Shown in pieces: positions 1-17,018 of a stretch of 64,000 nt of DNA; position 1 is the stretch's first letter; each line of letters begins with the position of its first letter. The stretch is from Candidatus Uhrbacteria bacterium (lineage in GTDB: Bacteria; Patescibacteriota; Patescibacteriia; UBA9934; GWF2-40-263). Both the position numbers and the translations under genes were made by a program. A model generated the notes under the pieces. The model did no database searches. It saw only the letters and a program-made list of their open reading frames with translations, and had not been told where the DNA came from. The stretch covers positions 81,887 through 145,886 of the forward strand of contig JAHFIQ010000001.1 of the NCBI GenBank assembly GCA_023246355.1, given 5' to 3'.

Positions 1-825
1 AAAAAGGCACAGGAGAGAATTCGCAACGCGGTCACCGGTCTCACGCTTCTGTTATGCGTCTATCTGATTTTGGCGTCTATCAATCCTCAGCTGGTGATCT
101 TCAAACCTCTGCGTGTGTTGAATGTCGAAGGTCTGGAACTGGAAAAAGGAATAAACAGCAACGAGGGATTAAGCAGCTCCTCCTCAAGTGGGGGATCTTC
201 ATCTTCTTCTTCCAGCGCGGCAAAGAGCACGTGTGAAACAATAAGCGAAACAGCAAAAGCAGAAGGAACCTGTGAAATAACTCAAGAGGTTATTTCTCCC
301 ATTGGGGAAGCGCCCGTTTGTGACAGCAACAGTCATTGGACAGATGAAACAGGCACCTTCAAAGACTACTCAGAAATCACGGAACTCGATTTTGCTGCAG
401 GATTCGGCGTGGCCATCATGGCACCGATGGATGGAACGGTTTCCTACATTGTGGGGCAGGACACGAAATGTGGAAACTGGATTACCCTCACAGGTTCAGG
501 CGATGCCGCTGGCGCACAAATCAGCTTCTGTCATGTCGCAGACTTTGTGGACGACGCCGGAGAATACCACGATAATACCGCTGTCTCCCAAGGTGATACC
601 ATTGGTCATACAGGGGGTGTCTGGTGCAAGGGAGAAACGCCTCCCACGGACTGGGATCCGGATGGAAGTGCAACCTATGTTGACGGGACGGCTTGCACAG
701 ATCCGACGACCGCAGAAAACTGCAATTGCCAAACCGTTCTCCAAGCAGGGCTTTCAAAAAAAGCTCACCTGCACATGCAATGGCACCGCGGTGGAGACCT
801 GCTCGCTTGTTTGGAAGACTTCTAA
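1..825 (+). CDS. Membrane-anchored peptidase M23 (LytM-like) domain protein, 5' end outside window
   Basis: The ORF runs in frame from nt 1. A hydrophobic helix ends in the INPQLVIFKPL linker, followed by an S-rich stretch and an M23-like motif set (MAPMDGTVSY ... HTGGVW). It is paralogous to the next gene. Confidence 0.6.
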   Translation, partial: KKAQERIRNAVTGLTLLLCVYLILASINPQLVIFKPLRVLNVEGLELEKGINSNEGLSSSSSSGGSSSSSSSAAKSTCETISETAKAEGTCEITQEVISPIGEAPVCDSNSHWTDETGTFKDYSEITELDFAAGFGVAIMAPMDGTVSYIVGQDTKCGNWITLTGSGDAAGAQISFCHVADFVDDAGEYHDNTAVSQGDTIGHTGGVWCKGETPPTDWDPDGSATYVDGTACTDPTTAENCNCQTVLQAGLSKKAHLHMQWHRGGDLLACLEDF

Positions 826-827
826 CT

Positions 828-1847
828 ATGAGACGTAACACTGTCATCTTTCTGGCTCTCATACCGATGATGCTATTCATCGGACTTTTTGGGCATCCAG
901 TGCATGCAGCGAGCACTTCGTCTTCTTCCCTCATCAAACCCACCCTCGCGATCGATATCCCGACGGTGACGTTTAGTGATGGGGAGATCGACGGCGATAC
1001 GATCAAAATCAATTACCTGGGCGACTACATTGCCGGTGTGTACAAGTGGCTGCTAGGCTCTGCGACCTTGATCGCGATCGTCATGCTCATGATCGGCGGG
1101 CTGCAGTACACCATCTTTCAAGAAGACAAGGCAAAGACCCGGATCAAAAATGCCGTTACGGGACTCGTGCTTCTGCTTTCCACGTACTTGATTCTTGCCA
1201 CGATCAATCCACAACTTGTTATTTTTAAACCACTCAGTATCCAAAACATTCCTGAGGTCCCCTTGGAAAACCTTGAAGTAGAATTCAGTAGCGACACGAC
1301 GACGAGCACCTGTACAGGAAGTGACTGCGTAGGGGTCTCTCACTATCAAGACTGTATGATCGAACAATACGGTGGAAGTCCAGGTGCTGTCCGGGCGCAA
1401 CTCGTGCCAGTTACCGTTGACTACGCCGGGCACACCGGAACCTACTACGTCCATCAAAAAGTACAGGCGAAATTTCAAGCGGTGTTCGATGCTATTGCTG
1501 CTTCAGGGACGACCTATGATATTACAAAAAGTATAGGAATCTTTAATTGGCGCGCCGTAACAGCTAAGCCGAAATACTTAAGCAACCACTCATGGGCAAC
1601 GGGAATCGACATTAACCCTGATACAAATCCCTATTGTTCAGCAGAATGTTTCGATAGTGACGCTAGCACGAAATGTTTCTGCGTTGGTGCAAATTGTCAG
1701 ACAGACTGCCCAGCTGGAAAATACGACCTACCCAAAAAAGAAGTCATCGATATTTTTATCAGTAATGGGTTTGACTGGCTTGGAGATCGTGCGGAGGGAA
1801 AATTCCAGGACTACATGCATTTTGACGCACATACAGGCTGTGAATAA
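828..1847 (+). CDS. Exported two-helix (TrbC/VirB2 pilin-like topology) protein fused to a peptidase M15 (VanY/LAS-type) domain
   Basis: ATG at 828 follows the upstream stop by 3 nt. Signal peptide MRRNTVIFLALIPMMLFIGLFGHPVHAAS, two hydrophobic helices, and the same INPQLVIFKPL linker as the upstream gene. C-terminal SNHSWATGIDINP (SxHxxGxAxD) and DYMHFDAH motifs are typical of LAS metallopeptidases. Confidence 0.55.
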   Translation: MRRNTVIFLALIPMMLFIGLFGHPVHAASTSSSSLIKPTLAIDIPTVTFSDGEIDGDTIKINYLGDYIAGVYKWLLGSATLIAIVMLMIGGLQYTIFQEDKAKTRIKNAVTGLVLLLSTYLILATINPQLVIFKPLSIQNIPEVPLENLEVEFSSDTTTSTCTGSDCVGVSHYQDCMIEQYGGSPGAVRAQLVPVTVDYAGHTGTYYVHQKVQAKFQAVFDAIAASGTTYDITKSIGIFNWRAVTAKPKYLSNHSWATGIDINPDTNPYCSAECFDSDASTKCFCVGANCQTDCPAGKYDLPKKEVIDIFISNGFDWLGDRAEGKFQDYMHFDAHTGCE

Positions 1848-1850
1848 CCT

Positions 1851-3197
1851 ATGTTCATCTGTTCCCATTGCGACTCCCAATCCCTGAAGTGGTCTGGAAA
1901 ATGCGTGACCTGCGAAAAGTGGGGCACGCTTGTTGAGGAGAAGGCCGAGGTAGCCCCAGGCTTTAGCCAGGGTTCGGCCGCAAAAGCAAAGCCTGCAAAG
2001 AGTCAGGCTCTTTCTGATGTGGCGAAGCAAAACGAACATGATCGCTTGAGTACACAGGATCCTGAAGTGGATCGTGTCTTGGGTGGAGGAATTGTCGCGG
2101 GATCGGTTGTCTTGCTTTCGGGTGAACCAGGAATCGGCAAATCAACACTCGTGGCACAAATTGCCGGTAGTGTCCTTTCCACCTCTTCCACCTTATCCAC
2201 CTCATCTCCCTCCTCTGTCCTCTATATTTCTGGCGAAGAATCTGCAATGCAACTTGCTTCAAGATTTAAAAGATTATCTCTCACAGCCGACAGAGTCCGC
2301 GTGCTCGAACCTTTTCCTGTGGAGACACTGGTCGCGACCATCGAAAAGGAGAAGCCTTCCCTTGCTGTGATTGACTCGGTACAGACTCTCACCTCATCTC
2401 TCATCGACAGCACGGCTGGCTCACCGACCTTGGTGCGCTACGCCACTTCCCTGCTGCTTGATCTTGCCAAGCGCACCAACGTGTCAATTCTGCTGGTGGG
2501 ACAGGTCACCAAAGATGGATCGATCGCAGGGCCCAAGACCCTGGAACACTTGGTGGATGTGGTCGTGAATTTGGAAGGCGATCCTGTGCATAGCTATAGG
2601 ATGCTGCGCGCGGCCAAAAATCGATTCGGCGCAACAGACGAAATCGGCGTGTTTGAAATGACTGAGCAAGGACTCAAGGCTGTGACGAATCCTTCTGAAA
2701 GATTCTTAGCTGAGCGGTCAAGAACACCAGGATCTGTCATCGCCGCCACGGTCGAAGGTTCACGGGTGTTTCTCGTGGAAGTCCAGGCCCTGGTCGAACA
2801 AAGTTTCTACGGCACGCCTGTGCGCCGCGCCTCAGGCTTTGATCCCAACCGTTTACAGATGCTCGTGGCAATCCTGTCAAAACGTGCGGGCCTCAAACTC
2901 GGCGAGAAAGACGTGTATGTGAATGTGATCGGTGGAATGGACCTGCGAGAGCCGGCAGCTGACTTGGCGGTTTGTGCGGCGATCGTCAGCGCGTTTAAAA
3001 ATGTCACGGACGCGTCCTCAACGGTCTACCTGGGAGAAGTCGGCTTGGGTGGTGAAGTGCGCTCTGTGGGTCTTGTGGACAAGCGTCTCCAGGAAGCCGC
3101 ACGCCTTGGCATCACGGCCGCGGCAGTGCCGTCCAAGAGTAAAATAAAAATGAATTCCGTTGAGATTCGAAAAATAGAAAACGTAAAAGACCTCTGA
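1851..3197 (+). CDS. radA: DNA repair protein RadA/Sms
   Basis: N-terminal C4 zinc ribbon (CSHCDSQSLKWSGKCVTCEKWG), Walker A GEPGIGKST and a C-terminal Lon-like domain. It contains a 12-aa S/T-rich in-frame insert (STSSTLSTSSPS) encoded by a dispersed mini-repeat. Confidence 0.9.
   Translation: MFICSHCDSQSLKWSGKCVTCEKWGTLVEEKAEVAPGFSQGSAAKAKPAKSQALSDVAKQNEHDRLSTQDPEVDRVLGGGIVAGSVVLLSGEPGIGKSTLVAQIAGSVLSTSSTLSTSSPSSVLYISGEESAMQLASRFKRLSLTADRVRVLEPFPVETLVATIEKEKPSLAVIDSVQTLTSSLIDSTAGSPTLVRYATSLLLDLAKRTNVSILLVGQVTKDGSIAGPKTLEHLVDVVVNLEGDPVHSYRMLRAAKNRFGATDEIGVFEMTEQGLKAVTNPSERFLAERSRTPGSVIAATVEGSRVFLVEVQALVEQSFYGTPVRRASGFDPNRLQMLVAILSKRAGLKLGEKDVYVNVIGGMDLREPAADLAVCAAIVSAFKNVTDASSTVYLGEVGLGGEVRSVGLVDKRLQEAARLGITAAAVPSKSKIKMNSVEIRKIENVKDL
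2176..2212. repeat. GAGGTGGA-type mini-repeat inserted in-frame in radA
   Basis: ccacctcttccaccttatccacctcatctccctcc is the reverse complement of gatgaggtggataaggtggaagaggtgg. It encodes STSSTLSTSSPS. Confidence 0.6.
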
Positions 3198-6847: not shown

Positions 6848-7401
6848 ACGCCGTCCTCCGTCACATAACTTAAAATGATGTCTTGATACTTCACGGTTGT
6901 GTTTTGCGGTGAGTCAATGGCTTCTTCCCGTTGCGTGGTCACGGTCACCTGCGCCGTTCCGGCTGTTTCATCTTTCTCATCCACGGTCACGGTCACGATC
7001 GATGTGGAAACGCCATAGTAGCCTTCTGGCATTTCACCTTCGTCAATCATCTTTTGTGTTTTGGCCGCAAACGCCTCACTCATGAGGGGTAAGACATCCA
7101 CCAGGTTGCCAAAATCTGCTTCATTGGAATAACTCCCGTAGCGGGTGACAAATGTTTTTGAAAGAGACGTGACGTCAGACGTTTGTGTCCGTACTTCGCG
7201 TTCTTGTTCTAGTTCAAGCTCTGACACGGTCGGCCGATCTGGCACCACTTGTTCTTCTTGTGTGACCTCTGCCACCTCTTCACCCTGTTTCACCTCGTCC
7301 ACCTTCCCAGAAAACAAGACATACAAAAGCCAGCCAAGCAGCAGCAGTAAAATAAGCAGAATTAAGACAACAATTGAAATACGTTTGCGTCGAGTCATCA
7401 T
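6817..7401 (-). CDS. Bitopic membrane protein, possible VirB8/PrgL-like (NTF2-like) T4SS component
   Basis: N-terminal TM helix (ISIVVLILLILLLLLGWLLYVLF), acidic linker, and a ~110-aa C-terminal domain ending WKVDSAVWQ. Its start overlaps the VirB4 stop (ATGA). The VirB8 assignment rests on position and topology only. Confidence 0.4.
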   Translation of the reverse strand: MMTRRKRISIVVLILLILLLLLGWLLYVLFSGKVDEVKQGEEVAEVTQEEQVVPDRPTVSELELEQEREVRTQTSDVTSLSKTFVTRYGSYSNEADFGNLVDVLPLMSEAFAAKTQKMIDEGEMPEGYYGVSTSIVTVTVDEKDETAGTAQVTVTTQREEAIDSPQNTTVKYQDIILSYVTEDGVWKVDSAVWQ

Positions 7402-9506
7402 ACTTTGAGAGAGTCACGGATTTTATCGGCTTGTTCTTTTCCCGCGTTCTCCGTGGACAGCAAGGCGGCAGCGGCATCCTGTGCAGCCTTCTCCTGCTCA
7501 GCAATCTCCTGAGCCTCCTTGGCATCTTCATCCAAATCCATGACGTCTTCTTTTGCTTGTGCGGCCTGTGCAGCTTGGGATTCTTTCTGCTGTACTTCCT
7601 GAACTTTTTTCTGTTCATCAGCGATGTCTTGCTTTGCCTTTTCTTGTTTGAGCAATTGCTGCGGGTTGGTTGTCACAATCTGGTCCTCAACATAGGAGGC
7701 AACCACTTTGATGGCCGCATGCTTATTTCCTGCAAAGAAAATCCCCTCTCCCACTCCAGACTCAAGCAACAGATATTTTTCTCCATCGGTGAGGTGAAAC
7801 GTTTTTTGAATGTTGTCCACGGCTGAGGCTGCTTGTTTGAGAAGAACTTGCATGGCAGAGTTGGTCACAATCGCCTGGCCATAGGCCGAGCGCAAAAAGT
7901 CGTTCACGTCCTGGGTGATGGTGGTGACGCCAAGGAAATATTTTCTCGCACGCTTCACCAAGGCGAAAATAAACTTCGCCGAGTCCTCATTTTGCATGAG
8001 CCACCACGCTTCATCCACCACCAAAATACGCTTGCGGCGCACTGAGCGCACCACGTTCCAGATGTAATTGACGATGTTGTAAATGGCCACAGGTCGCAGT
8101 TCGTCCTCGAGGTCTCTGACGGAAAAAACGACTAATTGATTTTTCATCTCCACGTTGGTGGTGGAATTGAGCAGTCCCGCAAAGGTGCCTTCCGTATATT
8201 TCTGCAAACGCGCCATGAGATTGGACGAGCCTTCCATGCCGTCAAGCACGTCTTCAAAATCTGTGAGCGTAGGCGGTTCGACCGCGGAGAGATCGGTGAG
8301 ATCAGGCGTGATGTCTTTTTTCGCGTAGGTTTCAATGAGGGCTCGATCAAGCAGAGAGTCTTCCTCCGGGGTAAACCCAAGTTTGCCGCCCTCTCCAATG
8401 GGCTGACCAATCATGATACGCAACAGACCTTTGAGTGTGATCACGGCTGAGCGAATAATATCTTCGACTTTTGTTCCCTCACCGATCGCGCGAGGCAGGT
8501 CAAAGGGATTCACGCGAGCCTCGGAGGCCAGAGACACATTGATAAACGTGCCGCCCACCGCGTCAGACAAATCTTTATATTCGTATTCCGGATCTATCAC
8601 AATCACATCCACGCCCATCATGAGGGAGCGAATAATCTCAAGCTTCACGGTGTAGGACTTTCCTGCACCTGAGGTGGCAAACACGACCGCATTGGCATTT
8701 TGCAAACTAAAACGATCGAACAAAATAAGCGAGTTGTTGTGGCGGTTGATGCCGTAGAGGATGCCGTTATCGCTGGTGAGATCAGAGGAAATGAACGGGA
8801 AAGACGCGGCGATAGGACTGGTGTTCATGTTGTAGCTGATGACCAGCTCGTCGTTGCCAAGAGGAACTGTTGAATTGAACCCTTGTTCTGCCTGATAAAA
8901 ACCAGACTTTGTATAAATGAGTTTGCTTCCAAACAAGGATTCCACCTCCCCGGTAAATTTTTCCAGCTCTTCTGGAGACTTGGCGTAAATCGTCACGTAG
9001 AACGAAAACTGAAAGAAATGTTCAATGCCTTGGGTGAGGGCGTCACGCAGAGATTCAATATCGCGCAGAGCGGTTTCGGCAATCGGATCACGTGGCGCGC
9101 CTTTTTCCGCATCACCCAAAATTTTGGCTTCAAATACTCCTACCTTTTTTTGCAACTGCTTCAAAATAATGTTCGCCTTGAGCGGATAAAAGAACATGGC
9201 CACGTCAAACGTTTTGTTGAGATTGATGAGTGGCGAAGACCATCCCAAACCGATGTGGCGCGGGTAGGTGATGATAAACAATGTTCTGGCGTAGACCCCA
9301 GAGAGCATCAAGTACGTTGGCTTCACTTCAAATGATGCCGGCGCGATGATCTGCCTCACCGTGACCACACCACGCCGATACACCCGCTCTTCTTCCAGAA
9401 CGATCTTTTCCTCTGTGACGCGTTTCACCTCCGCCTTCACCTCCTTCACCTTTTCAGGCGGTGGCGCTGGCATCGCGGCTTTAATTTTTCCAATATCAAT
9501 GGGCAT
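7398..9506 (-). CDS. virB4: VirB4/TraC/PrgJ-like type IV secretion ATPase
   Basis: Walker A FATSGAGKSYT, Walker B/DEAW motif ILVVDEAWWLM and a TTITQDVNDF motif. The N-terminal region resembles Gram-positive-type VirB4 (FIITYPRHIGLGW). Confidence 0.8.
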   Translation of the reverse strand: MPIDIGKIKAAMPAPPPEKVKEVKAEVKRVTEEKIVLEEERVYRRGVVTVRQIIAPASFEVKPTYLMLSGVYARTLFIITYPRHIGLGWSSPLINLNKTFDVAMFFYPLKANIILKQLQKKVGVFEAKILGDAEKGAPRDPIAETALRDIESLRDALTQGIEHFFQFSFYVTIYAKSPEELEKFTGEVESLFGSKLIYTKSGFYQAEQGFNSTVPLGNDELVISYNMNTSPIAASFPFISSDLTSDNGILYGINRHNNSLILFDRFSLQNANAVVFATSGAGKSYTVKLEIIRSLMMGVDVIVIDPEYEYKDLSDAVGGTFINVSLASEARVNPFDLPRAIGEGTKVEDIIRSAVITLKGLLRIMIGQPIGEGGKLGFTPEEDSLLDRALIETYAKKDITPDLTDLSAVEPPTLTDFEDVLDGMEGSSNLMARLQKYTEGTFAGLLNSTTNVEMKNQLVVFSVRDLEDELRPVAIYNIVNYIWNVVRSVRRKRILVVDEAWWLMQNEDSAKFIFALVKRARKYFLGVTTITQDVNDFLRSAYGQAIVTNSAMQVLLKQAASAVDNIQKTFHLTDGEKYLLLESGVGEGIFFAGNKHAAIKVVASYVEDQIVTTNPQQLLKQEKAKQDIADEQKKVQEVQQKESQAAQAAQAKEDVMDLDEDAKEAQEIAEQEKAAQDAAAALLSTENAGKEQADKIRDSLKV

Positions 9507-9588
9507 AGAATAGGTGGATCAGGGAGACAAGGTGGAACAAGTGGTCGGAATCCGGAACCACCTAGTCTCCCTTGTCTACCTTTCTACC

Positions 9589-10293
9589 TTACATTTTTAC
9601 ATCGTCCACGTGCGTCATATCTTCTGATTGAACTTGGGTGATGTCATTCAACTTTTCTGTTTCCTGCAAATCGGGATTGTAGACATTGTAGTAGAGCTCA
9701 ATGAGACTCTGGGTATCCAACCGTGCGGAAGAAAGCCCCATGCTATTCAACTGTCCTTGAAGAATTTCCACGCGTCTCCCGAGCTGTTCCACTCTCTCCG
9801 TCAGTTGTTTCTTGCTCAATTTGGCAGCCGCGGCTGGTGAGAGCGACTCGGACAGTCGTGTCCAAAAATTTTTCTTTTTGTTCGTGAGAGGATCGTAGGG
9901 CAACACGACGTAGAACAGTTTTTGCATGATTTGACCCAGCTCAACCAGTTCAGTGACAAAAGCGCGGTAATCTGCAATCTGGGCACGCAACAGATCGTTC
10001 TCAATCTTGCGTTCCTGCTCACGGAGCCTGGCCATGTACGCATCAATGTTCATGCGACGCGACTGAATCACGATCTGAACTGGATACTCGAGTGAATTCA
10101 AAAACGTCATGTAGGCCTGAATGATCGCCTCCTGCTCTTCCCCAGACTTGAGCGCAAAGTTAATGCTCGACACCAACAACACGGCACGAACCGTCCCATC
10201 TTTGAGCAACACCAAGTCATCTCGAATCTCAGCAATATCGAGATACTTCTCGGTTGCCGGACCTGGTTTTGATTTGGCGAGTTTTGTTGCCAT
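9589..10293 (-). CDS. T4SS-associated hypothetical protein; possibly a separately encoded VirB4 N-terminal-like domain
   Basis: ATG at 10293 (MATKLAKSK...). The motif DIAEIRDDLVLLKDGTVRAVLLVSSINFALKSGEEQEAIIQAYMTFLNSL resembles the start of VirB4/CagE N-domains. The gene sits immediately upstream of virB4. Confidence 0.4.
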   Translation of the reverse strand: MATKLAKSKPGPATEKYLDIAEIRDDLVLLKDGTVRAVLLVSSINFALKSGEEQEAIIQAYMTFLNSLEYPVQIVIQSRRMNIDAYMARLREQERKIENDLLRAQIADYRAFVTELVELGQIMQKLFYVVLPYDPLTNKKKNFWTRLSESLSPAAAAKLSKKQLTERVEQLGRRVEILQGQLNSMGLSSARLDTQSLIELYYNVYNPDLQETEKLNDITQVQSEDMTHVDDVKM

Positions 10294-10401
10294 ACGAGTG
10301 TGAACGGGTGGCACGGTGTCTGACCCTGGCCGGCTAGCGCAGGCCACAGGCCGAGCACCGACAGGGTCTGCACCGTGACAGGACCCGTTCACGGCGATAC
10401 A

Positions 10402-10833
10402 TTATTCTTCAGGCTTATACACTCCCCCCGTATTCACCACTAAGGTTAATTCTTGCAATCGTGAAGTAGCGGTAAATTCTTTGCGCACAAAGTGCACGGG
10501 AGGCGGAGGGGTTTTCTGCGAGATCAATTCTTTGAGTTCTGAATCTTGATAGACCTTCTGCCACACCCGCAGCTTTGGTTTTTTCAGTGTTTGCAACAGG
10601 TTGAGAAAAAAATAATGAAAGGCCTGGCCATTGATTCTCACAAACGCCACAATCCCAGCCAGACAGATAAGCGGAATGCCGAAGATCAGAAACTGAACAA
10701 AACTGAGGAGTTTGAACAGTGCAAAATTTGTAAGACCTGCAACCATGAGGATGATAAATTGCCGAGCCGTGACAGGCCCGAAAATTTTGTCCTCTGCATC
10801 GATAAATTGTGGCACCACGAATTGTTCGGGCAT
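10402..10833 (-). CDS. PrgI/VirB3-like small membrane protein
   Basis: 143 aa. N-terminal EDKIFGPVTARQF motif (PrgI-like) followed by two TM helices. It lies upstream of virB4, as in Gram-positive T4SS loci. Confidence 0.45.
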   Translation of the reverse strand: MPEQFVVPQFIDAEDKIFGPVTARQFIILMVAGLTNFALFKLLSFVQFLIFGIPLICLAGIVAFVRINGQAFHYFFLNLLQTLKKPKLRVWQKVYQDSELKELISQKTPPPPVHFVRKEFTATSRLQELTLVVNTGGVYKPEE

Positions 10834-10856
10834 ACCCTATTCTACCAGAACCTGAG

Positions 10857-12101
10857 TTAAAACCTGAGTTCTGCATTCAATTCCATCATCATCTTGAGCT
10901 CTTCGTCCGTCAGTGTCTCTTCTTTTGCTGCACGACGTTCGGAAAGCAGCTGCACCACCGGCATGCCCTTCAAAACCGCATCTCGCGTGACTCCCATGTA
11001 AAGTTTGTTAAGGGGCGACTCCCGCCAGGCTTTGATGCCTTCAATTTTTTTGTCATACCCCTGTTCTTCCAACAAGCCGACTTTGTCTTTTACTTTTGTG
11101 GCCGCCTGCTTTGGATCAGATGAAAGCCGACGGAAATCTAGAAGACTCAACATCCGCAATTCTTCCACCGGCCCGGTCAGCCGTTTTTCAAAGGCAATCT
11201 CTTGCATGGATGCCTGGGCCTGTACGCGAGGACGTTTGGGAACAGCGGGAACCTTGCTCTGCTCAATGGCGTTGCGAACCTGACCTGTGAGCTGCTCATA
11301 GCGCTTGGCGAGTTGAGCTTCTTCTTGTTTTGCCACGTCTTGTTTTTCAATGACCTTTTTTTGTCGAGCCTCTTTTGCTGCGCCCTTTTCTTGTTCCTGT
11401 TTGACCATGGAGGCTTCCTGATAGCGTGTCACTTCCCCCTCGATCATCGAGAGCATGTCAGCAAGCCGTCGTCCTGTGACCCCCAGTCCTCCGGCATCCA
11501 CGGATCGCTCGAGCTGTGAACGTGTCTGTTCGGCGGTTCTGACCTCGCGCACGCGAGACTCGACGAGCTTGCCACATCTGTCTTTCAAAAGAACATCTGA
11601 AAATTGAAACGCGGGGTTTTCGCAAATCGTTTTCACAATGCTCTCAACATCAACAGGCGCGGCAGAGGTGAGAACAGCAGCGTGTTTTTCTTTGATCGCT
11701 GCAAGATCTTGTTCATCTTGAGCGTGATCGTCTTGTTGTACAACCGCGCCCAAGGGTTTGGTCCCTGAGTCGGATGGGATTAATGGGACGGATGAGGCGG
11801 CCGGTTTTCCAATCTTTCCAGCAAGCAAAATCGAAACGATTTCATCCAACAAGGTCATGGCCTTCATCCGCTCGAGTCCCAAAAGCTTCTTGATGGTCTC
11901 GATCAGTTCTTCTTCTGTCCTGGACCCTTCACACAATTCGATCACATCGGAGTGGAGTTTGGATACTTCATCCTCTCCCCCGCCGGCTTCTGTCACCAAC
12001 CGCTCGAGTCCATCAAAAACCTCCGGGCTCCACAAATACGCGCGAGCTTCTTGAGACAATTCTTTTTTTTGTACGGTCGTAGTGCTTGTCATGAAGTTCA
12101 C
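10857..12101 (-). CDS. Hypothetical coiled-coil protein within the T4SS-like operon
   Basis: 414 aa, no TM, K/E/Q-rich coiled-coil segments. Its start overlaps the stop of the VirB6-like gene. Confidence 0.5.
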   Translation of the reverse strand: MNFMTSTTTVQKKELSQEARAYLWSPEVFDGLERLVTEAGGGEDEVSKLHSDVIELCEGSRTEEELIETIKKLLGLERMKAMTLLDEIVSILLAGKIGKPAASSVPLIPSDSGTKPLGAVVQQDDHAQDEQDLAAIKEKHAAVLTSAAPVDVESIVKTICENPAFQFSDVLLKDRCGKLVESRVREVRTAEQTRSQLERSVDAGGLGVTGRRLADMLSMIEGEVTRYQEASMVKQEQEKGAAKEARQKKVIEKQDVAKQEEAQLAKRYEQLTGQVRNAIEQSKVPAVPKRPRVQAQASMQEIAFEKRLTGPVEELRMLSLLDFRRLSSDPKQAATKVKDKVGLLEEQGYDKKIEGIKAWRESPLNKLYMGVTRDAVLKGMPVVQLLSERRAAKEETLTDEELKMMMELNAELRF

Positions 12102-14830
12102 GTAGTTCTAGCCTTCTTCTCCTCTTCTCTTTTTTTCAAGTACGCCCGCATCGCGTTCAACTGCGCTTCTACTTTTGCAAACTCCTTGCCTTCATCGGTG
12201 GCTGGATCAACCACAGGATTTACTTTTTCTGCTTCCTTCTTCGTGATTCTATTCAAAATGTTCACGACCGTGGAAGCCTTGTCGACATTCTCGGGTTTAG
12301 CCGCTTCCTTGGCTGCATCAGCCTCTGCTCTGGCCGCAGCTTTATCTTGAGGGCGATTCATGGGATCAGCCGCAGCGCGCTGTGCTGTTTGTTCAGCTCG
12401 ATCTGCGGTCGCTTGTAATTGTGCGGCCACCTGTGACCTTGCCGCTGCAAGATCACGAGCAAGCTGATCCAACTCCTGCGTGACCTTTTCACGGGCTGGT
12501 TCCAATCTTGATTTCTGTTCTGTTTCAACCCTGCCGACATCTCGCTGAACGGCCTCATCCACACCGCGAGTAACACGATTCATGTGTTGTGCTGAACTTG
12601 AACCTGGTTTCATGGCACCAACGTTCTGAGCGGTTTCACGCATGACCGTCACAATTTTCATCCGCTCACTGGGATCCGTAGCTCCATGAAACTTGGCTCC
12701 AAGATTGCTCATGAGCGTCCTGGCACGATTTTCGTCGCCGGCTCGCATCGCCGCCTCTATGGCTTTTCTGATTCCATCAGCGGTTCCTTTCTCACCAAGG
12801 GTCGTCACATTCACACGAGCCAACTCTGCATCATTCATGCGCTCATATTTTTCTCCTTCACCGCTGGTAAGCGCATTCTTCTTTGCGTCGCCCGCTCCGC
12901 CCAGACCCTTTGACACAGCATCATAAGCAGAAAGATACTCCCCATCGGCTCCACGCACATCCGACTTCACATTCCTCAACCGTTCCTGAATGGCTTTATC
13001 TTTCAGGGCATCATCATTCAGGCCTTTGACATCATCCCAAGTGCTGATAAGCCCTGCAGATTTCGTAATATCGGCATTGGATTTTTTGAAGTCGTTAATC
13101 TGATCCAACTTGGCCGCATCGTGTTTGTTATCGTTTGTGAACTCGTTGCCTTTCTGCGCCCAAGCTTTTTGCAATGTTCCATCAGCTCGCGCTTCTTTTT
13201 GCATGCGCTTGTCACCCATGGTTTCATCCAAAAGCGCCTTGTACTGCGCGTCTTCTTTTGCAGAAAGCGATCCGCCACGTGCAACTTGATTGGCGTAGGT
13301 TCGCATGAGGTTCAACTTTTCGTCGCGACCCTTGTTCTTCATGCCTTCCTTAGCAAGCTTCATGTCCTCAGTACGCGCAAGCCCAGCCTGCGCTTTGGAA
13401 CGAGCTTGAACCCCAACACCAAGGCGTTCGAGCGTTCTGAGTCCTGTCACCTTTCCCGTCTTTTGTACGATGCTGCCTGCACCTGTCTTCACAGATTCAC
13501 GAGCAGAAGCATACCCTCGAGCAACAGCCGATGAGCCTGGTAAGTAGCTCGCGACTGTCACAGCGGCAGAAGGAGCGCGATAGGCACCCTTGGCTCCCAA
13601 TCGCAATCCTGCGCCACCAGCTTTAAGACCAAGGCCACCGGCTCCGAGACCCAATGCAGCCGCCCCTTTTGCAAGCACACCACCCCTGGCTTTTTGTAGA
13701 GATTTCCCAAGCACGCCGCCGGACAAAGACGAACACAATTGTTGAGCGGCATCAAACCCGGCAAACAACATAGCCATGCCGATGAGAAAGCTCATGAAAT
13801 GTTGAGGTTCGAGTAACTTAGAAGCAAGGTCAGCAGAGTTCGCTGAACTTACATTAAAACCAGTCTCGGCCGCTATATTTCCTGCTCCAGCTACGGCAAG
13901 AGTCAGCCATAAGAAAAAAGTAAGAACAGGGCCTACACCAACCAAACACTTAAAACGATCCCACCATTTTGCATACGCGTCTGATTGAATGATGCCGCTT
14001 GAACCGCCTGCTCCACCAACAAACCAGGCGAGCGGAGAAATCACCACCAAAATCCACAGACCAATAATACGATAGATCAAAATCACTACCAACATGATGA
14101 GCGTTCCTAAGACCCACAGGGTGAGCAAGACAGACATGATGCCACCACCTAAGTAGTCAAAATTATCAATAGTTTTTCCTGCAGCCGTCCCAACGTCGTT
14201 GAGCGCCTGAATGTTTGTGCTCACCTGATACAATTGATTCAGTCCTAAAAGTTGAATAAAGTTTCCGGCCGCAATCTCACGCAGGGCATTGGCAAAGGTG
14301 AGCATGATCACCTGACCAAAATCGATCATGATGCCACAGAGGGTTTTTGAAAAGTTGATCACGATCGCAAAGGTGAGAAGTTTTGGCACCTGCTGTGACC
14401 ATTGAAACTTGGAGTGACCGAAGATGGTTCCAAACGCTATGATGATGAGCACGATCACAAAAAACATGTTGACTGTGTCGCGCATGATGGCCCAACCAGC
14501 ACTCACCACTTTGTTGGTCACAAAACTGTTATACGTCATGATGGGAACCATGAGGTCAATCATGAGTACAATACCTTGGGTCAAAATGCCTGCAATAGAA
14601 TAGGCAATATTGGCGAGCGTACCTGCAATAGTATCCAAGACGCTCAGTCCACCGAGAGCAGCCGCAGAGGCGCCGGGAGCTGCGGCCCGAGTCATCACCG
14701 GAATCAAAAAAGCAAAAAGAGACGAAACAAAAACACCTCCCACACGACCAAAACGATGCGGAGTCTTCCGCTTCGCACGATCGCTGAGCCAGTCTTTGAG
14801 CGCATGCAGACGCAGAAAAAGCTTCAGCAT
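12098..14830 (-). CDS. VirB6/TrbL/PrgH-like polytopic membrane protein with a long hydrophilic C-terminal domain
   Basis: 910 aa: about 8-10 TM helices in the N-terminal 400 aa, then a ~500-aa charged tail. Assignment is by topology and synteny (VirB6, VirB3, VirB4, VirB8 order) only. Confidence 0.5.
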   Translation of the reverse strand: MLKLFLRLHALKDWLSDRAKRKTPHRFGRVGGVFVSSLFAFLIPVMTRAAAPGASAAALGGLSVLDTIAGTLANIAYSIAGILTQGIVLMIDLMVPIMTYNSFVTNKVVSAGWAIMRDTVNMFFVIVLIIIAFGTIFGHSKFQWSQQVPKLLTFAIVINFSKTLCGIMIDFGQVIMLTFANALREIAAGNFIQLLGLNQLYQVSTNIQALNDVGTAAGKTIDNFDYLGGGIMSVLLTLWVLGTLIMLVVILIYRIIGLWILVVISPLAWFVGGAGGSSGIIQSDAYAKWWDRFKCLVGVGPVLTFFLWLTLAVAGAGNIAAETGFNVSSANSADLASKLLEPQHFMSFLIGMAMLFAGFDAAQQLCSSLSGGVLGKSLQKARGGVLAKGAAALGLGAGGLGLKAGGAGLRLGAKGAYRAPSAAVTVASYLPGSSAVARGYASARESVKTGAGSIVQKTGKVTGLRTLERLGVGVQARSKAQAGLARTEDMKLAKEGMKNKGRDEKLNLMRTYANQVARGGSLSAKEDAQYKALLDETMGDKRMQKEARADGTLQKAWAQKGNEFTNDNKHDAAKLDQINDFKKSNADITKSAGLISTWDDVKGLNDDALKDKAIQERLRNVKSDVRGADGEYLSAYDAVSKGLGGAGDAKKNALTSGEGEKYERMNDAELARVNVTTLGEKGTADGIRKAIEAAMRAGDENRARTLMSNLGAKFHGATDPSERMKIVTVMRETAQNVGAMKPGSSSAQHMNRVTRGVDEAVQRDVGRVETEQKSRLEPAREKVTQELDQLARDLAAARSQVAAQLQATADRAEQTAQRAAADPMNRPQDKAAARAEADAAKEAAKPENVDKASTVVNILNRITKKEAEKVNPVVDPATDEGKEFAKVEAQLNAMRAYLKKREEEKKARTT

Positions 14831-14850
14831 AATCTGGGGGAATTATAGCA

Positions 14851-14945
14851 TGGAAGAGGAGGTGGAAGAGGTAGACGAGGTGGATAAGGTGGATTGGAAA
14901 GTCATTCTAAAACCTCATCTCCCTCATCCACCTCGGCCACCTTAA
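14851..14945. repeat. GAGGTGGA-type mini-repeat, intergenic copy with a partial inverted copy
   Basis: gaggtggaagaggtagacgaggtggataaggtgg at 14851-14900, with the partial inverted copy cctcatctccctcatccacctc at 14921-14945. Near-identical to copies inside rsmA, radA and nusA. Confidence 0.6.
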
Positions 14946-14978
14946 ATATAAAACCGGACGGGTCGTACCGTCCGGTAG
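14944..14978 (-). terminator. Rho-independent terminator downstream of the M23 lipoprotein gene
   Basis: Perfect 8-bp stem ccggacgg/ccgtccgg, followed on the minus strand by a T-rich run. Confidence 0.5.
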
Positions 14979-15017
14979 CGAGGGGTTAGCCTCCCATGTG
15001 GTCCTCCTGGTTATGGA

Positions 15018-17018
15018 TCACAATTGAGAATTGTCCGTGTAACCGTTGCCGATGCCCTGAAGTCCATCACTGGGATCCCAGGACACGTAGATGAGCCACT
15101 CCTCCCAGCTGGTGTCGTTGTCCATGAGCTCGCACAGGTCACTCCCACCGGAACAGAACCCATCGTTCTGCCACCAGTACCAGTTGCCCATGCTCGAATC
15201 CGGATCGTCACCGTCCGTGCCTTCAGCGTTGATGAGACTCATCTGCACTTCACAGTCGTAGGCAAACTCCGAGAAGTCGATCTCGTAGTAGCCACCACTG
15301 TTTGCGTAGACAAGGTCACCGCTTGAGAGCGTGCCGTTGTAGCATCCGCCATTGCCGTAGACGTAGGCGTCTTCACCGTCGATCGCGGAAGTGAGCCAGA
15401 GGTCGTCGGCCATGAGCAAGGTTTCGTAGAGTCCGTCTCCATCGCTGTCCACGATGCAGGCGTCTTCCCCATCGCAGTCCGTGTTGGTTTCAGGATCTTC
15501 GACTTCCTCTTCCTCATCGGTGTCTTCCTCATCAGCTTCTTCTTGGTCAGATGCGTCAGATGGGTCGGATGCGTCCGTATCCTCGTTGGATGCGTCCGCG
15601 TCATCACCATCTTCATCCTCGTCTTCATCCGACGTCGAGATCTCCTCGTCCTCGCCGTCCGATGAACCGCCGGTGCTGCCGCCACTGACCAGATCCAGTC
15701 CGCCGCCACAGGTCGCGACTGCATCCTCGTCCAAGCACCACTGATCTGCCGCGCAACTCCCGACCGTATCGAGTTCGCCCACGGTGCCGTCTGCCACCGT
15801 GATGATGTTGCGACTCAGATACCCCATCATGAGGTACATGTCCCAACTCACGATGGGCAGTGCGACTCCGCCGGAAACTTCCCACACGTCCGAGGCATCC
15901 TCTTCTTTGACGAGCGTCCCGTCGCGCAGCCCAACGTAGGAACTGCTCGGCGGCCAGGTTTCCATGTAGTCGCTGGAATCCGAGTACGTATCCGGATAGT
16001 TGTCCGTCCCGTAATCGAGTCCCCAGGACTCCATCACCGCCTCCCAGCCGATCTCGCGCACGCGGGCGCGATAGCGATTGGGGTCCGTGCTGGTTCCCAC
16101 GAACAGCCAGAGCTGCTCTTCGGTATCAAACGCGGCCTGCACCCAGCCAGTCTGCGTGATGTCGTCGCCCTCGCCCAGGCAGTCGAGTTCCTCGTCGGAG
16201 ATGATGACGACTTCCTCAAAGTCCCAGTTGTGACCCCAGAAGACGTCCTCGTTCTCGATCCACCTGGCCGCACCATCTTCCAGGACGTAGACGCGGGCAT
16301 TGTCACCGGTCTTCACGAGCGTCCCATCCGGATGCCAGAGCGGTACCGAAAGCTGGCTCTCGTAGAAGTCCCCGTCATGCGGATCACCTTCACTGGCGAT
16401 CCCGCAGACGAAGTCCTCCGAGTCGATCATCTGGGCCTCCCCGCGATCGCTCGCATTGGCTGCCCAGTACAGCGTGGGAATCGACACGCCGTTTCCGGCA
16501 TCCTCGCTGGCATCACCTTCATGAAGCCCGATGTGGATGTGGTCGCCGCTTGAGGCGCCCGTGTTTCCCTCGTACCCGATCAGCTCTCCCTGTCCGACCT
16601 CGTCCCCATCGCCGACAAAGATGTCGGAGAAGTGGCCCAGCACGATGTAGGTGCCATCACCCAGATCGATGTTGACGTGGTAGCCGAAGCCAGAGGTGGC
16701 ATCGAGATGCACGTAGGCCGTGCCCGAGATGGGCGCGTAGACTTCCTCGTCTGCGTAGTTGTTCGTATCCAGATCGATGTCGTACTCGGTGGACGTCTTC
16801 GAGTGGCTGTGAGAGCCGTGGGCTCCCTGCGTACACATGGTCTCGTGACCAGATTCCAGAGGAAGCTGGAGCGCTCCCTCACCTCCCCCTTGATCGGAGG
16901 AACCATTCGTCTCACGGGACACATCGAAGGGCTCGCAGCCCGACATGACGATGATCGTCAAAGCGCTCACAATGAGCGTGCTCACAAACAGGTAGCTTGG
17001 CAAACGATGGAAAAACAT
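15018..17018 (-). CDS. Lipoprotein with peptidase M23 domain, long D/E/S-rich acidic linker and C-terminal domain
   Basis: Likely start MFFHRLPSYLFVSTLIVSALTIIVMSGC (lipobox). M23 motifs GYHVNIDLGDGTYIVLGHF and GNTGASSGDHIHIGLHEG. Acidic low-complexity stretch of about 80 aa. GC about 63%. Confidence 0.65.
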   Translation of the reverse strand: MFFHRLPSYLFVSTLIVSALTIIVMSGCEPFDVSRETNGSSDQGGGEGALQLPLESGHETMCTQGAHGSHSHSKTSTEYDIDLDTNNYADEEVYAPISGTAYVHLDATSGFGYHVNIDLGDGTYIVLGHFSDIFVGDGDEVGQGELIGYEGNTGASSGDHIHIGLHEGDASEDAGNGVSIPTLYWAANASDRGEAQMIDSEDFVCGIASEGDPHDGDFYESQLSVPLWHPDGTLVKTGDNARVYVLEDGAARWIENEDVFWGHNWDFEEVVIISDEELDCLGEGDDITQTGWVQAAFDTEEQLWLFVGTSTDPNRYRARVREIGWEAVMESWGLDYGTDNYPDTYSDSSDYMETWPPSSSYVGLRDGTLVKEEDASDVWEVSGGVALPIVSWDMYLMMGYLSRNIITVADGTVGELDTVGSCAADQWCLDEDAVATCGGGLDLVSGGSTGGSSDGEDEEISTSDEDEDEDGDDADASNEDTDASDPSDASDQEEADEEDTDEEEEVEDPETNTDCDGEDACIVDSDGDGLYETLLMADDLWLTSAIDGEDAYVYGNGGCYNGTLSSGDLVYANSGGYYEIDFSEFAYDCEVQMSLINAEGTDGDDPDSSMGNWYWWQNDGFCSGGSDLCELMDNDTSWEEWLIYVSWDPSDGLQGIGNGYTDNSQL

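What the first reader, a model, noticed from the sequence alone, without database searches (positions are those of the whole stretch)
1..1847. Tandem paralogous cell-wall hydrolases with pilin-like (TrbC/VirB2-type) N-termini
Two adjacent genes share a near-identical module: a hydrophobic helix plus the INPQLVIFKPL linker. The complete gene has a signal peptide and two helices separated by a short basic loop, which is VirB2/TrbC-like topology. The C-terminal domains differ: M23/LytM in gene 1, LAS/M15 (SNHSWATGID ... DYMHFDAH) in gene 2. They may be the peptidoglycan hydrolases (VirB1 analogues) of the nearby T4SS-like system, or pilin-hydrolase fusions.
Basis: partly seen in the sequence, partly recalled or inferred. 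Interest (0 to 1): 0.55.

Follow-up and report, generated by a model that had tools for sequence, protein, structure and literature searches.

The report
Pilin-anchored swappable cell-wall cutting enzymes
Two neighbouring genes of an ultra-small (Patescibacteria/CPR) bacterium attach two different cell-wall-cutting enzymes to the same secretion-pilin-like membrane hairpin, and in sister genomes the second enzyme has been replaced like a cassette, which points to an undescribed way these host-dependent bacteria deploy wall-degrading enzymes.

Summary
Gene 1 (1-825, cut by the window edge; full length 376 aa) and gene 2 (828-1847, 339 aa) share a 47-residue module (68% identical, INPQLVIFKPL identical). 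Gene 2 has a signal peptide and a two-helix hairpin with a basic loop.

The module belongs to Pfam T4SS_pilin (PF18895), the VirB2-like pilin family of Patescibacteria. The C-terminal domains are an M23/LytM fold with all catalytic residues conserved (gene 1) and an M15_4 LAS peptidase (gene 2).

New findings:
- The module defines a very large family (50,129 clusters). The part after an NPxL junction is exchangeable: M15_4, VanY, M23, NlpC/P60, C39-like, amidase, glucosaminidase, SLT, lipase or unknown.
- In five sister genomes, DNA homology to gene 2 stops at the INPQL codons and resumes at the radA start.
- The conserved partner is a membrane DsbA directly upstream, not the T4SS. The enzyme domains are cysteine-rich.
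- The T4SS cluster 5.5 kb away has its own M23 protein. A third paralogue and distant relatives have no T4SS genes nearby.

The "pilin-hydrolase fusion" reading is supported; "VirB1 analogue" is not. Whether the hairpin still enters a pilus is open. I found no paper describing this architecture.

The parts
1..825 (+). Gene 1, truncated at the 5' end by the window edge. It corresponds to the last 274 of the 376 residues of its full-length form (P0021, 273/274 identical): pilin-like hairpin fused to an M23/LytM peptidase.
   Evidence: Translation. 273/274 identity to P0021 residues 103-376. Pfam on P0021: T4SS_pilin 29.6 bits (above the cut-off of 26.6) and M23 25.4 bits.
25..78 (+). Gene 1: second hydrophobic helix of the hairpin (window residues 9-26, NAVTGLTLLLCVYLILAS).
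   Evidence: Hydropathy. Aligns to helix 2 of gene 2. Helix 102-129 in the P0021 model.
79..111 (+). Gene 1: junction motif INPQLVIFKPL.
   Evidence: Identical peptide in gene 2; 25/33 nt identical and all differences synonymous. N and P are invariant across the family.
226..822 (+). Gene 1: cysteine-rich M23/LytM domain. Catalytic residues (P0021 numbering): H214 at nt 334-336, D232 at nt 388-390, H280 at nt 532-534, H358 at nt 766-768, H360 at nt 772-774.
   Evidence: H214, D232, H358, H360 and 8 Cys are invariant, and H280 nearly so, in 12 homologues. Model pLDDT is 80-93 in this domain. Foldseek against the PDB: DipM LytM 8.7e-7, ShyA, LytM, lysostaphin.
828..1847 (+). Gene 2, complete (339 aa): signal peptide, pilin-like hairpin, NPxL junction, linker, M15_4 (LAS) peptidase.
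   Evidence: Translation. Identical to P0001. Pfam M15_4 44.5 bits and T4SS_pilin 23.8 bits.
828..908 (+). Gene 2: Sec-type signal peptide (residues 1-27, predicted cleavage VHA|A).
   Evidence: Hydrophobic stretch 2-28. The AxA site is read from the sequence. Helix 5-20 in the model.
930..1013 (+). Gene 2: conserved extracellular lead-in to the hairpin (LIKPTLAIDIPTVTFSD...IKINYLGDY).
   Evidence: P38, L40, I44, P45, L64 and Y67 are invariant in orthologues. Short strands 53-55 and 58-61 in the model.
1014..1205 (+). Gene 2: two-helix membrane hairpin (helix 63-95, basic loop QEDKAKTRIKN, helix 99-126). This is the T4SS_pilin (PF18895) core.
   Evidence: AF2 pLDDT about 87-94. Pfam match at residues 68-122. 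Family HMM 127 bits.
1203..1235 (+). Gene 2: junction motif INPQLVIFKPL, the end of the constant region.
   Evidence: DNA homology to five sister genomes ends at nt 1210-1218. Across 11,403 protein pairs the homology break is most often 15-19 residues after the Asn.
1219..1847 (+). Gene 2: exchangeable cassette (linker plus M15_4 domain). Zn triad: H254 at nt 1587-1589, D261 at nt 1608-1610, H331 at nt 1818-1820. A cysteine-rich insert lies between D261 and H331.
   Evidence: L002, L003, L004, L006 and L007 show no DNA homology here, but homology resumes at nt 1849-1850. H254, D261, H331 and 8 Cys are invariant in the 5 M15_4 orthologues.
1851..3197 (+). radA, the conserved right-hand flank of the variable slot (context only, not part of the system).
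   Evidence: Pfam AAA_25, Zn ribbon and Lon_C. Syntenic in 23 of the 38 related loci L002-L039.
7398..17132 (-). Nearby monoderm-type T4SS cluster (context): VirB4-like 7398-9506, TraC-like N-part 9589-10392, PrgI/VirB3 10402-10833, 414-aa protein 10857-12101, polytopic VirB6-like 910-aa protein 12098-14830, membrane-anchored M23 protein 15018-17132.
   Evidence: Pfam. Hydropathy. The family HMM finds no other pilin-like ORF anywhere in the 64-kb window.

Best explanation
What the genes encode. The two genes encode exported, disulfide-rich peptidoglycan peptidases. Gene 1 is an M23/LytM-type endopeptidase. Gene 2 is a LAS-type M15_4 peptide-stem peptidase. Both are built on the same N-terminal carrier: a Sec signal peptide, then the two-helix membrane hairpin of the Patescibacteria 'T4SS_pilin' family (VirB2-like), ending in a conserved NPxL(V/I) junction.

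How the protein is placed (partly shown, partly inferred). The topology is shown by hydropathy, charge distribution and the structure model; the order of events below is inferred.
1. Sec export and signal-peptide cleavage leave the N-terminus outside.
2. Helix 1 crosses inwards, and the K/R-rich loop stays in the cytoplasm.
3. Helix 2 crosses back out.
4. The enzyme domain hangs outside on a flexible linker of about 35-45 residues.
5. A membrane-anchored DsbA, encoded directly upstream in the same orientation, presumably oxidises its eight or more conserved cysteines.

Family pattern (shown by comparison). The carrier is constant and whatever follows the junction is exchangeable. Gene 1 occupies a vertically inherited M23 slot. 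Gene 2 occupies a hypervariable slot next to radA that holds unrelated enzymes in sister genomes.

Function (inferred). These are surface-deployed wall-cutting enzymes. The variable member is matched to a target wall, most likely that of a host or neighbouring cell at the contact site. They are not dedicated VirB1-type assembly factors of the neighbouring T4SS. Whether the carrier only tethers the enzyme or still feeds it into a T4SS pilus is unresolved.
For: Architecture and topology.

Enzyme identity:
- M15_4 scores above the Pfam cut-off, and H254/D261/H331 are invariant.
- The M23 fold is matched in the PDB, and H214/D232/H280/H358/H360 are conserved.

Family size and modularity:
- 50,129 representative clusters at E<=1e-3 and 16,672 at E<=1e-10.
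- Among 92 close single-module relatives, 89 match T4SS_pilin. Their C-terminal hits are C39_2 (11), NlpC/P60 (7), VanY (6), M23 (6), M15_4 (4), Amidase_2 (2), SLT (2), glucosaminidase (1) and GDSL lipase (1).
- 94% of 11,403 protein pairs share only the N-terminal part, and the homology break clusters 0-35 residues after the NP motif.

Cassette exchange at one locus:
- The slot between DsbA and RadA holds M23+M15_4 here, M23+C39-like in L002, and NlpC/P60, C39-like, VanY, glucosaminidase or VanY+amidase in other genomes.
- DNA homology ends at nt 1210-1218 and resumes at nt 1849-1850 in five genomes.
- Gene 2 against its positional counterpart P0005: residues 1-133 are highly similar, then unrelated.

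DsbA coupling:
- DsbA is directly upstream on the same strand (gap <=105 nt) in 21 of 38 loci (L001-L038), and within 3.4 kb in 9 more.
- DsbA is also directly upstream of the third paralogue P0063.
- Cysteine content is 4.2% in C-terminal domains and 5.7% in N-terminal extensions, against 1.5% in 13 other window proteins.

Against a dedicated T4SS role.
Against: - There is no experimental evidence of any kind, and no enzyme assay.
- The hairpin's homology to genuine VirB2/TrbC is not statistically demonstrable, so 'pilin' rests on the name of a Pfam family whose members have not been shown to form pili.
- Gene 2 scores below the PF18895 cut-off, and its C-terminal domain model is mediocre, with no significant PDB match.
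- A tether of about 40 residues reaches the cell's own wall more easily than another cell's. That favours an own-wall (autolysin) role unless the protein is released or carried on a pilus.
- Gene 1's slot is inherited vertically, like a housekeeping gene.
- These two genes are the only pilin-like genes in the 64-kb window, which contains the whole T4SS cluster. They could therefore be that system's pilins after all.
- C39-like domains, and the more than half of C-terminal domains with no Pfam match, are not proven wall hydrolases.
Confidence: 0.55

Rival explanations
1. True modular T4SS pilins. The hairpin is extracted from the membrane by the VirB4 machinery and polymerises. The fusions would be minor or tip subunits that display a wall-cutting enzyme on the pilus, letting it bore through the cell's own wall and the host's wall.
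For: - PF18895 membership and VirB2-like topology, with both termini outside, so a C-terminal domain would sit on the filament surface.
- No other pilin-like ORF exists in the window, which holds the complete T4SS cluster.
- The fusion locus and virB4 are conserved within 10 kb of each other in Uhrbacteria-type genomes.
- VirB2-like pilins are described as essential T4SS parts in Patescibacteria (PMC10633639, PMC12102498).
- Rapid cassette turnover fits a host-interaction role.
- Modular pilins carrying grafted functional domains exist in type IV pili (PMC8179133).
Against: - Linkage to virB4 disappears outside the syntenic lineage and for paralogue P0063.
- Similarity to genuine VirB2 is not significant.
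- By my own reasoning, untested, a 200-residue globular domain on every subunit would be hard to pack, so only a tip or minor role seems feasible.
- Relatives with 3-16 hairpins in one polypeptide do not look like classical pilin monomers.
Confidence: 0.25
2. Housekeeping autolysins. The hairpin is only a membrane anchor of pilin ancestry. The enzymes remodel the cell's own wall for growth and division, and domain swapping is neutral turnover among redundant hydrolases.
For: - The genes sit in a core, syntenic chromosomal block (DsbA ... radA, recG).
- Gene 1's M23 slot is vertically inherited.
- The short tether reaches the cell's own wall.
- M23 and LAS enzymes are classical autolysins, and the PDB matches include ShyA, DipM and LytM.
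Against: - Non-homologous replacement of the catalytic domain between genomes whose RadA is 83-85% identical is unusual for housekeeping autolysins.
- The C-terminal repertoire includes a lipase and many unknown domains.
- There are up to four copies per locus and tens of thousands of clusters.
- A signal peptide plus two helices is a needlessly complex anchor if only tethering is needed.
Confidence: 0.2
3. VirB1 analogues. These would be dedicated wall hydrolases that open the cell's own peptidoglycan for assembly of the neighbouring T4SS.
For: - The genes lie 5.5 kb from virB4 in the same conserved block.
- Gram-positive T4SS hydrolases can contain LytM domains; PrgK is cited in PMC12102498.
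Against: - The genes lie outside the cluster, separated from it by radA, recG, tRNAs and a comF-like gene.
- The cluster has its own anchored M23 protein at 15018-17132.
- P0063 and the non-syntenic relatives lack T4SS neighbours.
- The conserved partner is DsbA, not a T4SS gene.
Confidence: 0.1

Closest known systems
VirB2-like T4SS pilins of Patescibacteria (Pfam PF18895; pilin arrays in Ca. Southlakia epibionticum and N. lyticus; PMC10633639, PMC12102498, PMC12857230)
   Same: Same Pfam family for the hairpin. Both have a signal peptide plus two hydrophobic helices with a short cytoplasmic loop. Both occur as tandem, divergent paralogues. Both are restricted to the CPR lineage.
   Different: The described pilins are small stand-alone proteins inside T4SS clusters. 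Here the hairpin carries a 200-300-residue enzyme after a conserved NPxL junction, lies outside the cluster, and is paired with DsbA. The papers I read do not mention hydrolase fusions.
Polymorphic toxin systems (CdiA-CT after the VENN motif, Rhs, LXG; from my own knowledge of Zhang/Aravind-type analyses)
   Same: A constant N-terminal trafficking part, a short conserved junction motif, and unrelated C-terminal enzymatic domains exchanged at the same locus, with recombination breakpoints at the junction.
   Different: No immunity gene follows, since radA starts 4 nt after the stop. The variable domains are wall hydrolases rather than nucleases or deaminases. The N-terminal part is a membrane hairpin and not a known toxin-export domain.
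Cell-wall hydrolases of monoderm T4SSs (VirB1 family; PrgK, TraG of pIP501, TcpG; as reviewed in PMC12102498)
   Same: Membrane-anchored peptidoglycan hydrolases found in genomes with an MPF_FATA-like T4SS. PrgK also has a LytM-type domain.
   Different: Those are encoded inside the T4SS operon, usually have a single N-terminal anchor, and carry SLT/CHAP domains. The window's cluster already has such a candidate at 15018-17132.
Modular type IV pilins (PilB and PilC of Streptococcus sanguinis; PMC8179133, PMC9934059)
   Same: The concept of a pilin moiety with a functional module grafted onto its C-terminus and displayed by the filament.
   Different: That is a different, unrelated pilin superfamily (type IV pili, not T4SS pili). 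The modules are adhesive rather than enzymatic. Filament incorporation is demonstrated there and untested here.
Secreted M23 and LAS peptidases (LytM, lysostaphin, ShyA, DipM; ChiX and phage L-Ala-D-Glu peptidases)
   Same: Same catalytic folds and metal ligands.
   Different: The window enzymes carry cysteine-rich inserts: about 40 residues before the HxH motif in gene 1, and between Asp261 and His331 in gene 2. They also carry the pilin-like carrier. Sequence identity to solved structures is only 13-18%.

Membership tests
Pfam PF18895 T4SS_pilin (CPR VirB2-like pilins) | Profile HMM score at or above the curated cut-off (26.6 bits) | tested here: met
   Full-length gene 1 (P0021) scores 29.6 bits. 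Gene 2 alone scores 23.8 bits, below the cut-off, but it scores 127 bits against the HMM of its own subfamily, and 89/92 members of that subfamily hit PF18895 at E<=1e-3.
Pfam PF18895 T4SS_pilin (CPR VirB2-like pilins) | Signal peptide plus two hydrophobic helices joined by a short basic cytoplasmic loop | tested here: met
   Hydropathy. AF2 helices 63-95 and 99-126 at pLDDT about 90. The loop QEDKAKTRIKN is read from the sequence.
Pfam PF18895 T4SS_pilin (CPR VirB2-like pilins) | Small stand-alone subunit encoded within a T4SS gene cluster | tested here: not met
   The proteins are 339 and 376 aa with enzyme domains. They lie 5.5 kb outside the cluster. Paralogue P0063 has no T4SS neighbours.
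Pfam PF18895 T4SS_pilin (CPR VirB2-like pilins) | Polymerises into an extracellular filament | not testable with these tools
   This needs filament purification or cryo-EM. No multimer modelling was available.
TrbC/VirB2 (Pfam PF04956) | Detectable sequence homology to genuine VirB2/TrbC | tested here: not met
   No PF04956 hit for either protein at E<=0.01. hhalign of the module profile against 7 plasmid VirB2/TrbC proteins gives probability 0.4%, E 0.15. A PDB profile search finds no pilin. Only 2 of 92 relatives hit TrbC, at best E 4.9e-4.
Peptidase M23 (LytM) | Pfam score at or above the cut-off (28.7 bits) | tested here: not met
   26.5 bits for the window fragment and 25.4 bits for P0021. 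An insert of about 40 cysteine-rich residues before the HxH motif interrupts the match.
Peptidase M23 (LytM) | M23 fold and metal/catalytic residues (H...D, catalytic H, HxH) | tested here: met
   Foldseek gives 23 PDB hits at E<=1e-3, all but one of them M23/LytM domains (the exception is a cyanophage pre-ejectosome chain). H214, D232, H358 and H360 are invariant, and H280 is conserved at 90% or more. The H-to-D spacing is long (17 residues) rather than HxxxD.
Peptidase_M15_4 / LAS metallopeptidases | Pfam score at or above the cut-off (25 bits) and the His-Asp-His zinc triad | tested here: met
   44.5 bits, E 2.3e-11. H254, D261 and H331 are invariant in 5 orthologues.
Peptidase_M15_4 / LAS metallopeptidases | LAS fold confirmed by structure comparison | tested here: inconclusive
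   The model is mediocre in this domain. The best PDB match is the LAS enzyme ChiX, but at E 1.9.
VirB1-type T4SS wall hydrolases | Encoded in, and co-inherited with, the T4SS cluster | tested here: not met
Polymorphic toxin systems | Constant N-terminal region, conserved junction motif, unrelated C-terminal domains at one locus | tested here: met
Polymorphic toxin systems | Cognate immunity gene immediately downstream, or orphan cassettes | tested here: not met
   The radA ATG lies 4 nt after the gene 2 stop. I saw no small downstream ORF in the syntenic loci. I did not search systematically for orphan cassettes.

The most novel reading that the evidence does not exclude
The fusions are genuine modular T4SS pilins. 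The VirB2-like hairpin is loaded by the CPR T4SS, and the enzyme ends up at the tip or along the shaft of a conjugative-type pilus, giving an enzyme-armed pilus. Its exchangeable 'warhead' (M15, M23, NlpC/P60, amidase, glucosaminidase, lytic transglycosylase, lipase) would be matched to the wall chemistry of the host that the episymbiont must breach. This would be a new delivery principle for a type IV secretion system, and a molecular handle on CPR host range.
Probability: 0.2. Interest if true: 0.85.

Novelty: new variant of a known kind. Interest (0 to 1): 0.62.

Why it matters
Patescibacteria make up a large share of bacterial diversity and live attached to other microbes. How they get through cell walls, their own and the host's, is not known. 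Their T4SS and its VirB2-like pilins are essential in the one system tested (PMC10633639), but the function is unknown.

A family of tens of thousands of clusters couples that pilin-like hairpin to swappable wall-degrading enzymes and to a dedicated DsbA. This gives concrete, testable candidates for the wall-breaching step and for host specificity. It also suggests that part of what genome surveys count as 'T4SS pilins' near virB4 may in fact be enzyme carriers.

The conserved NPxL junction is a natural site for domain-swap experiments.

Tried and rejected
- Word-indexed homologue search with gene 2's C-terminal domain alone found only the protein itself.
- Foldseek of the gene 2 model against the PDB gave nothing significant (best ChiX, E 1.9). 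The two-helix hairpin is too simple for fold search to discriminate.
- phmmer of both proteins and an hmmsearch of the module profile against PDB sequences found no pilin or peptidase hits. The only hits were chance matches to transmembrane helices.
- hhalign of the module against seven genuine VirB2/TrbC proteins fetched from plasmids was not significant. I therefore do not claim VirB2 homology.
- NCBIfam gave only a sub-threshold hit to the Mycoplasma ICE pilin-like family NF045849 (E 0.029).
- PHROGs showed no convincing link to phage endolysins.
A narrower alignment worked.
- A recent duplication or gene conversion between the two modules is rejected: 22 of 32 conserved codons differ synonymously.
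- A mobile-element or prophage origin was considered and set aside, because the flanks are syntenic housekeeping genes.
- Four literature searches for pilin-hydrolase fusions in CPR found no description. Absence from this library is not proof of absence.
Full report
**1. What is in the sequence**

Frame 1 is open from the window edge to a stop at 823-825. This fragment is 273/274 identical to residues 103-376 of database protein P0021 (376 aa), so P0021 is effectively the complete gene 1.

Gene 2 runs from ATG 828 to a stop at 1845-1847. It is 339 aa and identical to P0001. I prefer ATG 828 to the upstream TTG at 693 for two reasons. It gives a canonical signal peptide, and Met1 is invariant in the orthologues.

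The two proteins share one significant segment of 47 residues, 32 of them identical (E 6e-18). It includes the identical peptide INPQLVIFKPL at nt 79-111 and 1203-1235. At DNA level the segment is only 59% identical. Twenty-two of the 32 conserved codons differ synonymously. The paralogues are therefore old and held by selection; this is not a recent duplication.

Gene 2 has three hydrophobic stretches, at about 2-28, 67-99 and 106-133. It has a VHA|A cleavage site, and a loop QEDKAKTRIKN with four K/R between acidic outer flanks. AlphaFold2 models a confident helical hairpin, 63-95 and 99-126, at pLDDT about 90. The predicted topology is N-terminus out, loop in, C-terminus out.

**2. Domain identities**

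- *Gene 2, enzyme domain.* It matches Peptidase_M15_4 at 44.5 bits against a cut-off of 25. His254, Asp261 and His331, together with eight cysteines, are invariant in the five M15_4 orthologues. The structure model of this domain is mediocre, and the PDB fold search is not significant (top hit the LAS enzyme ChiX, E 1.9).
- *Gene 1, enzyme domain.* The M23 match falls just under the Pfam cut-off (26.5 and 25.4 bits against 28.7), because a cysteine-rich insert precedes the HxH motif. Across 12 homologues His214, Asp232, His358, His360 and eight cysteines are invariant, and His280 is nearly so. The model (pLDDT 80-93 in this domain) matches DipM, ShyA, LytM, lysostaphin and other M23 structures, with 23 hits at E<=1e-3. 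Both enzymes look catalytically competent.
- *The hairpin.* It is Pfam PF18895 'T4SS_pilin'. Full-length gene 1 scores 29.6 bits, above the 26.6 cut-off, and gene 2 scores 23.8 bits.
- *Link to classical VirB2/TrbC.* A direct link could not be shown. There is no PF04956 hit. hhalign against seven genuine plasmid VirB2/TrbC proteins gives probability 0.4%. No pilin appears in PDB sequence searches.

**3. The family**

A profile of the module finds 50,129 representative clusters at E<=1e-3 and 16,672 at E<=1e-10. Named sources are Ca. Uhrbacteria, Falkowbacteria, Parcubacteria and 'Patescibacteria group'.

The closest relatives are nearly all 300-550 aa, with the module followed by 200-300 more residues. 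Of 92 such proteins, 89 hit T4SS_pilin. Their C-terminal Pfam hits were:

| C-terminal domain | Members |
|---|---|
| C39-like (Peptidase_C39_2) | 11 |
| NlpC/P60 | 7 |
| VanY | 6 |
| M23 | 6 |
| M15_4 | 4 |
| Amidase_2 | 2 |
| SLT | 2 |
| Glucosaminidase | 1 |
| GDSL lipase | 1 |

More than half have no Pfam match after the module.

Among 11,403 pairs of single-module proteins, 94% are homologous only in the N-terminal part. The break falls mostly 0-35 residues after the invariant Asn-Pro, with the mode at 15-19.

**4. Cassette exchange at this locus**

One genome per species was scanned. In Uhrbacteria-type genomes the order is: PT-TG protein, a 405-aa anchored beta-propeller, DsbA, one to four fusion genes, radA, recG.

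The first slot is usually an M23 enzyme orthologous to gene 1 (35-82% identity in the catalytic domain). The slot next to radA varies:

| Genome(s) | Content of the slot next to radA |
|---|---|
| Window genome | M15_4 |
| L002, L004, L006, L011 | C39-like |
| L003, L007 | NlpC/P60 |
| L008, L014, L015 | VanY |
| L005 | Glucosaminidase plus an unknown domain |
| L013 | VanY plus Amidase_2 |

DNA homology between the window genome and L002, L003, L004, L006 and L007 ends at nt 1210-1218, inside the INPQL codons. It resumes at nt 1849-1850, two bases before the radA ATG. At protein level, gene 2 and its positional counterpart P0005 are highly similar through residue about 133 and unrelated afterwards.

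Gene 2's nearest M15_4 relatives (P0002-P0004) have less similar hairpins (54-65% identical) than P0005 and P0007 do (84-88%). The two halves of the protein therefore have different histories.

**5. The conserved partner is DsbA, not the T4SS**

A membrane-anchored DsbA (CxxC motif = CDAC) lies directly upstream on the same strand, with a gap of 105 nt or less, in 21 of 38 loci (L001-L038). It lies within 3.4 kb in nine more. Five of the eight loci without one have under 800 nt of upstream sequence.

The third paralogue in this genome, P0063, also follows a DsbA by one base. It has SecG, an ABC-transporter solute-binding protein and UvrA as neighbours, and no T4SS gene within 10 kb.

Cysteine content is 4.2% in C-terminal domains and 5.7% in N-terminal extensions, against 1.5% in 13 other window proteins.

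**6. Relation to the T4SS**

The window holds a monoderm-type cluster on the minus strand:

| Coordinates | Protein |
|---|---|
| 7398-9506 | VirB4-like |
| 9589-10392 | TraC-like N-terminal part |
| 10402-10833 | PrgI (VirB3) |
| 10857-12101 | 414-aa protein |
| 12098-14830 | 910-aa polytopic, VirB6-like protein |
| 15018-17132 | Membrane-anchored M23 protein |

The fusions are 5.5 kb away from this cluster, across radA, recG, three tRNAs and three other genes.

VirB4 appears within the flanks only in loci that share the whole syntenic block, and in none of about 17 non-syntenic loci. Proximity here is therefore lineage synteny rather than a conserved functional linkage, and the cluster has its own candidate VirB1.

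On the other side, the family HMM finds no other pilin-like ORF in the 64-kb window. It does detect a short Saccharibacteria pilin at 37.6 bits, so it has some reach. If this T4SS needs a VirB2-like subunit, these genes are the nearest candidates.

**7. Mechanism**

*Shown:* the architecture, the topology prediction, conserved catalytic residues, cassette exchange, DsbA pairing and cysteine richness.

*Inferred:*
1. Sec export and signal-peptide cleavage.
2. Hairpin insertion with the basic loop in the cytoplasm.
3. The enzyme held outside on a linker of about 35-45 residues (Ser/Thr-rich in both genes).
4. Oxidative folding by the adjacent DsbA.
5. Cleavage of peptidoglycan peptide stems or cross-bridges.

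I read the fast, non-homologous turnover of the radA-proximal enzyme as adaptation to a target wall, as in inter-organism conflict loci. The short tether, however, argues for action on the cell's own wall unless the protein is released or carried out on a filament.

My probabilities are as follows. They overlap and need not sum to one.

| Reading | Probability |
|---|---|
| Carrier-tethered, DsbA-dependent, cassette-polymorphic surface wall hydrolases (target unresolved, host or neighbour favoured) | 0.55 |
| Genuine modular pilins on a T4SS pilus | 0.25 |
| Purely housekeeping autolysins | 0.20 |
| Dedicated VirB1 analogues | 0.10 |

**8. What is known and what is new**

VirB2-like pilins and pilin arrays in Patescibacteria T4SSs are described (PMC10633639, PMC12102498, PMC12857230), and PF18895 is noted as abundant in freshwater CPR (10.1101/2025.04.23.650224). 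Automatic annotation already labels some members 'C40 family peptidase', 'C39 family peptidase' or 'pilin'.

I found no paper describing the fusion architecture, the NPxL junction, the cassette exchange or the DsbA pairing. The library is incomplete, so this is not proof of novelty.

The nearest concepts are polymorphic toxins (constant N-terminus, junction motif, variable C-terminus, but with immunity genes) and modular type IV pilins (PMC8179133). I class the finding as a new variant of known kinds.

Noticed in passing
L001:4747-6885 (same genome, about 2.3-4.4 kb upstream of window position 1): A 712-aa protein with two internal repeats of about 290 residues. Pfam reports two matched stretches of the PT-TG 'pre-toxin' domain (PF14449, 41.7 bits). 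The C-terminal region has several transmembrane helices. It is conserved at the head of the syntenic block (23-68% identity in 14 loci).
   Followed up: partly
L001:6882-8099 (just upstream of the DsbA gene): A 405-aa protein with an N-terminal membrane anchor and a probable beta-propeller (weak PD40 hit). It lies between the PT-TG protein and DsbA in 22 loci, down to 38% identity, so it may belong to the same envelope module.
   Followed up: partly
Window 3198-3929 and 3935-5242, minus strand: recG is split into two adjacent ORFs: the wedge and DEAD part (435 aa) and the Helicase_C and C-terminal part (243 aa). The public assembly's gene calls show the same split. It could be a real split, a frameshift or a pseudogene.
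   Followed up: no
Window 7398-9506 and 9589-10392, minus strand: The VirB4-like ATPase seems to be encoded in two genes: a TraC-like N-terminal part (about 241-267 aa) and a 702-aa P-loop part. The same arrangement is seen in L006, L007 and L014.
   Followed up: partly
Window 15018-17132, minus strand: A 704-aa protein at the end of the T4SS cluster with an N-terminal membrane anchor and a clear M23 domain (54.7 bits). It is the more likely VirB1-type hydrolase of this T4SS.
   Followed up: partly
Proteins P0072-P0103 from the exhaustive search (e.g. P0075, P0083, P0103): Some relatives string 2-16 pilin-like hairpins in one polypeptide. P0075 has three hairpins, each with its own NPxL junction, then an SLT-like tail. 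P0083 has 11 hairpins and P0103 has 16 (1775 aa). These could be poly-pilin polyproteins, or gene-calling read-through of tandem arrays.
   Followed up: partly
L003:8498-10825: In this sister genome the gene 1-like and gene 2-like genes form a single 776-aa ORF with two hairpins (an M23-type part, then NlpC/P60). This implies a lost stop codon or an assembly error.
   Followed up: no
Family members P0002, P0004, P0006, P0007 and the consensus of alignment A4: Many relatives have an extra cysteine-rich extension (median about 110 residues, median 6 Cys, CxC...C...C pattern) between the signal peptide and the hairpin. The two window genes lack it.
   Followed up: no
Window 23075-32803 (minus), 58925-63904 (minus) and 51708-54407 (plus): Very large ORFs of 3242 and 1659 aa with almost no Pfam matches, and an 899-aa MopE/FG-GAP repeat protein. 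The start of the 899-aa ORF as listed overlaps the valyl-tRNA synthetase ORF on the other strand. These look like typical CPR giant surface proteins.
   Followed up: no
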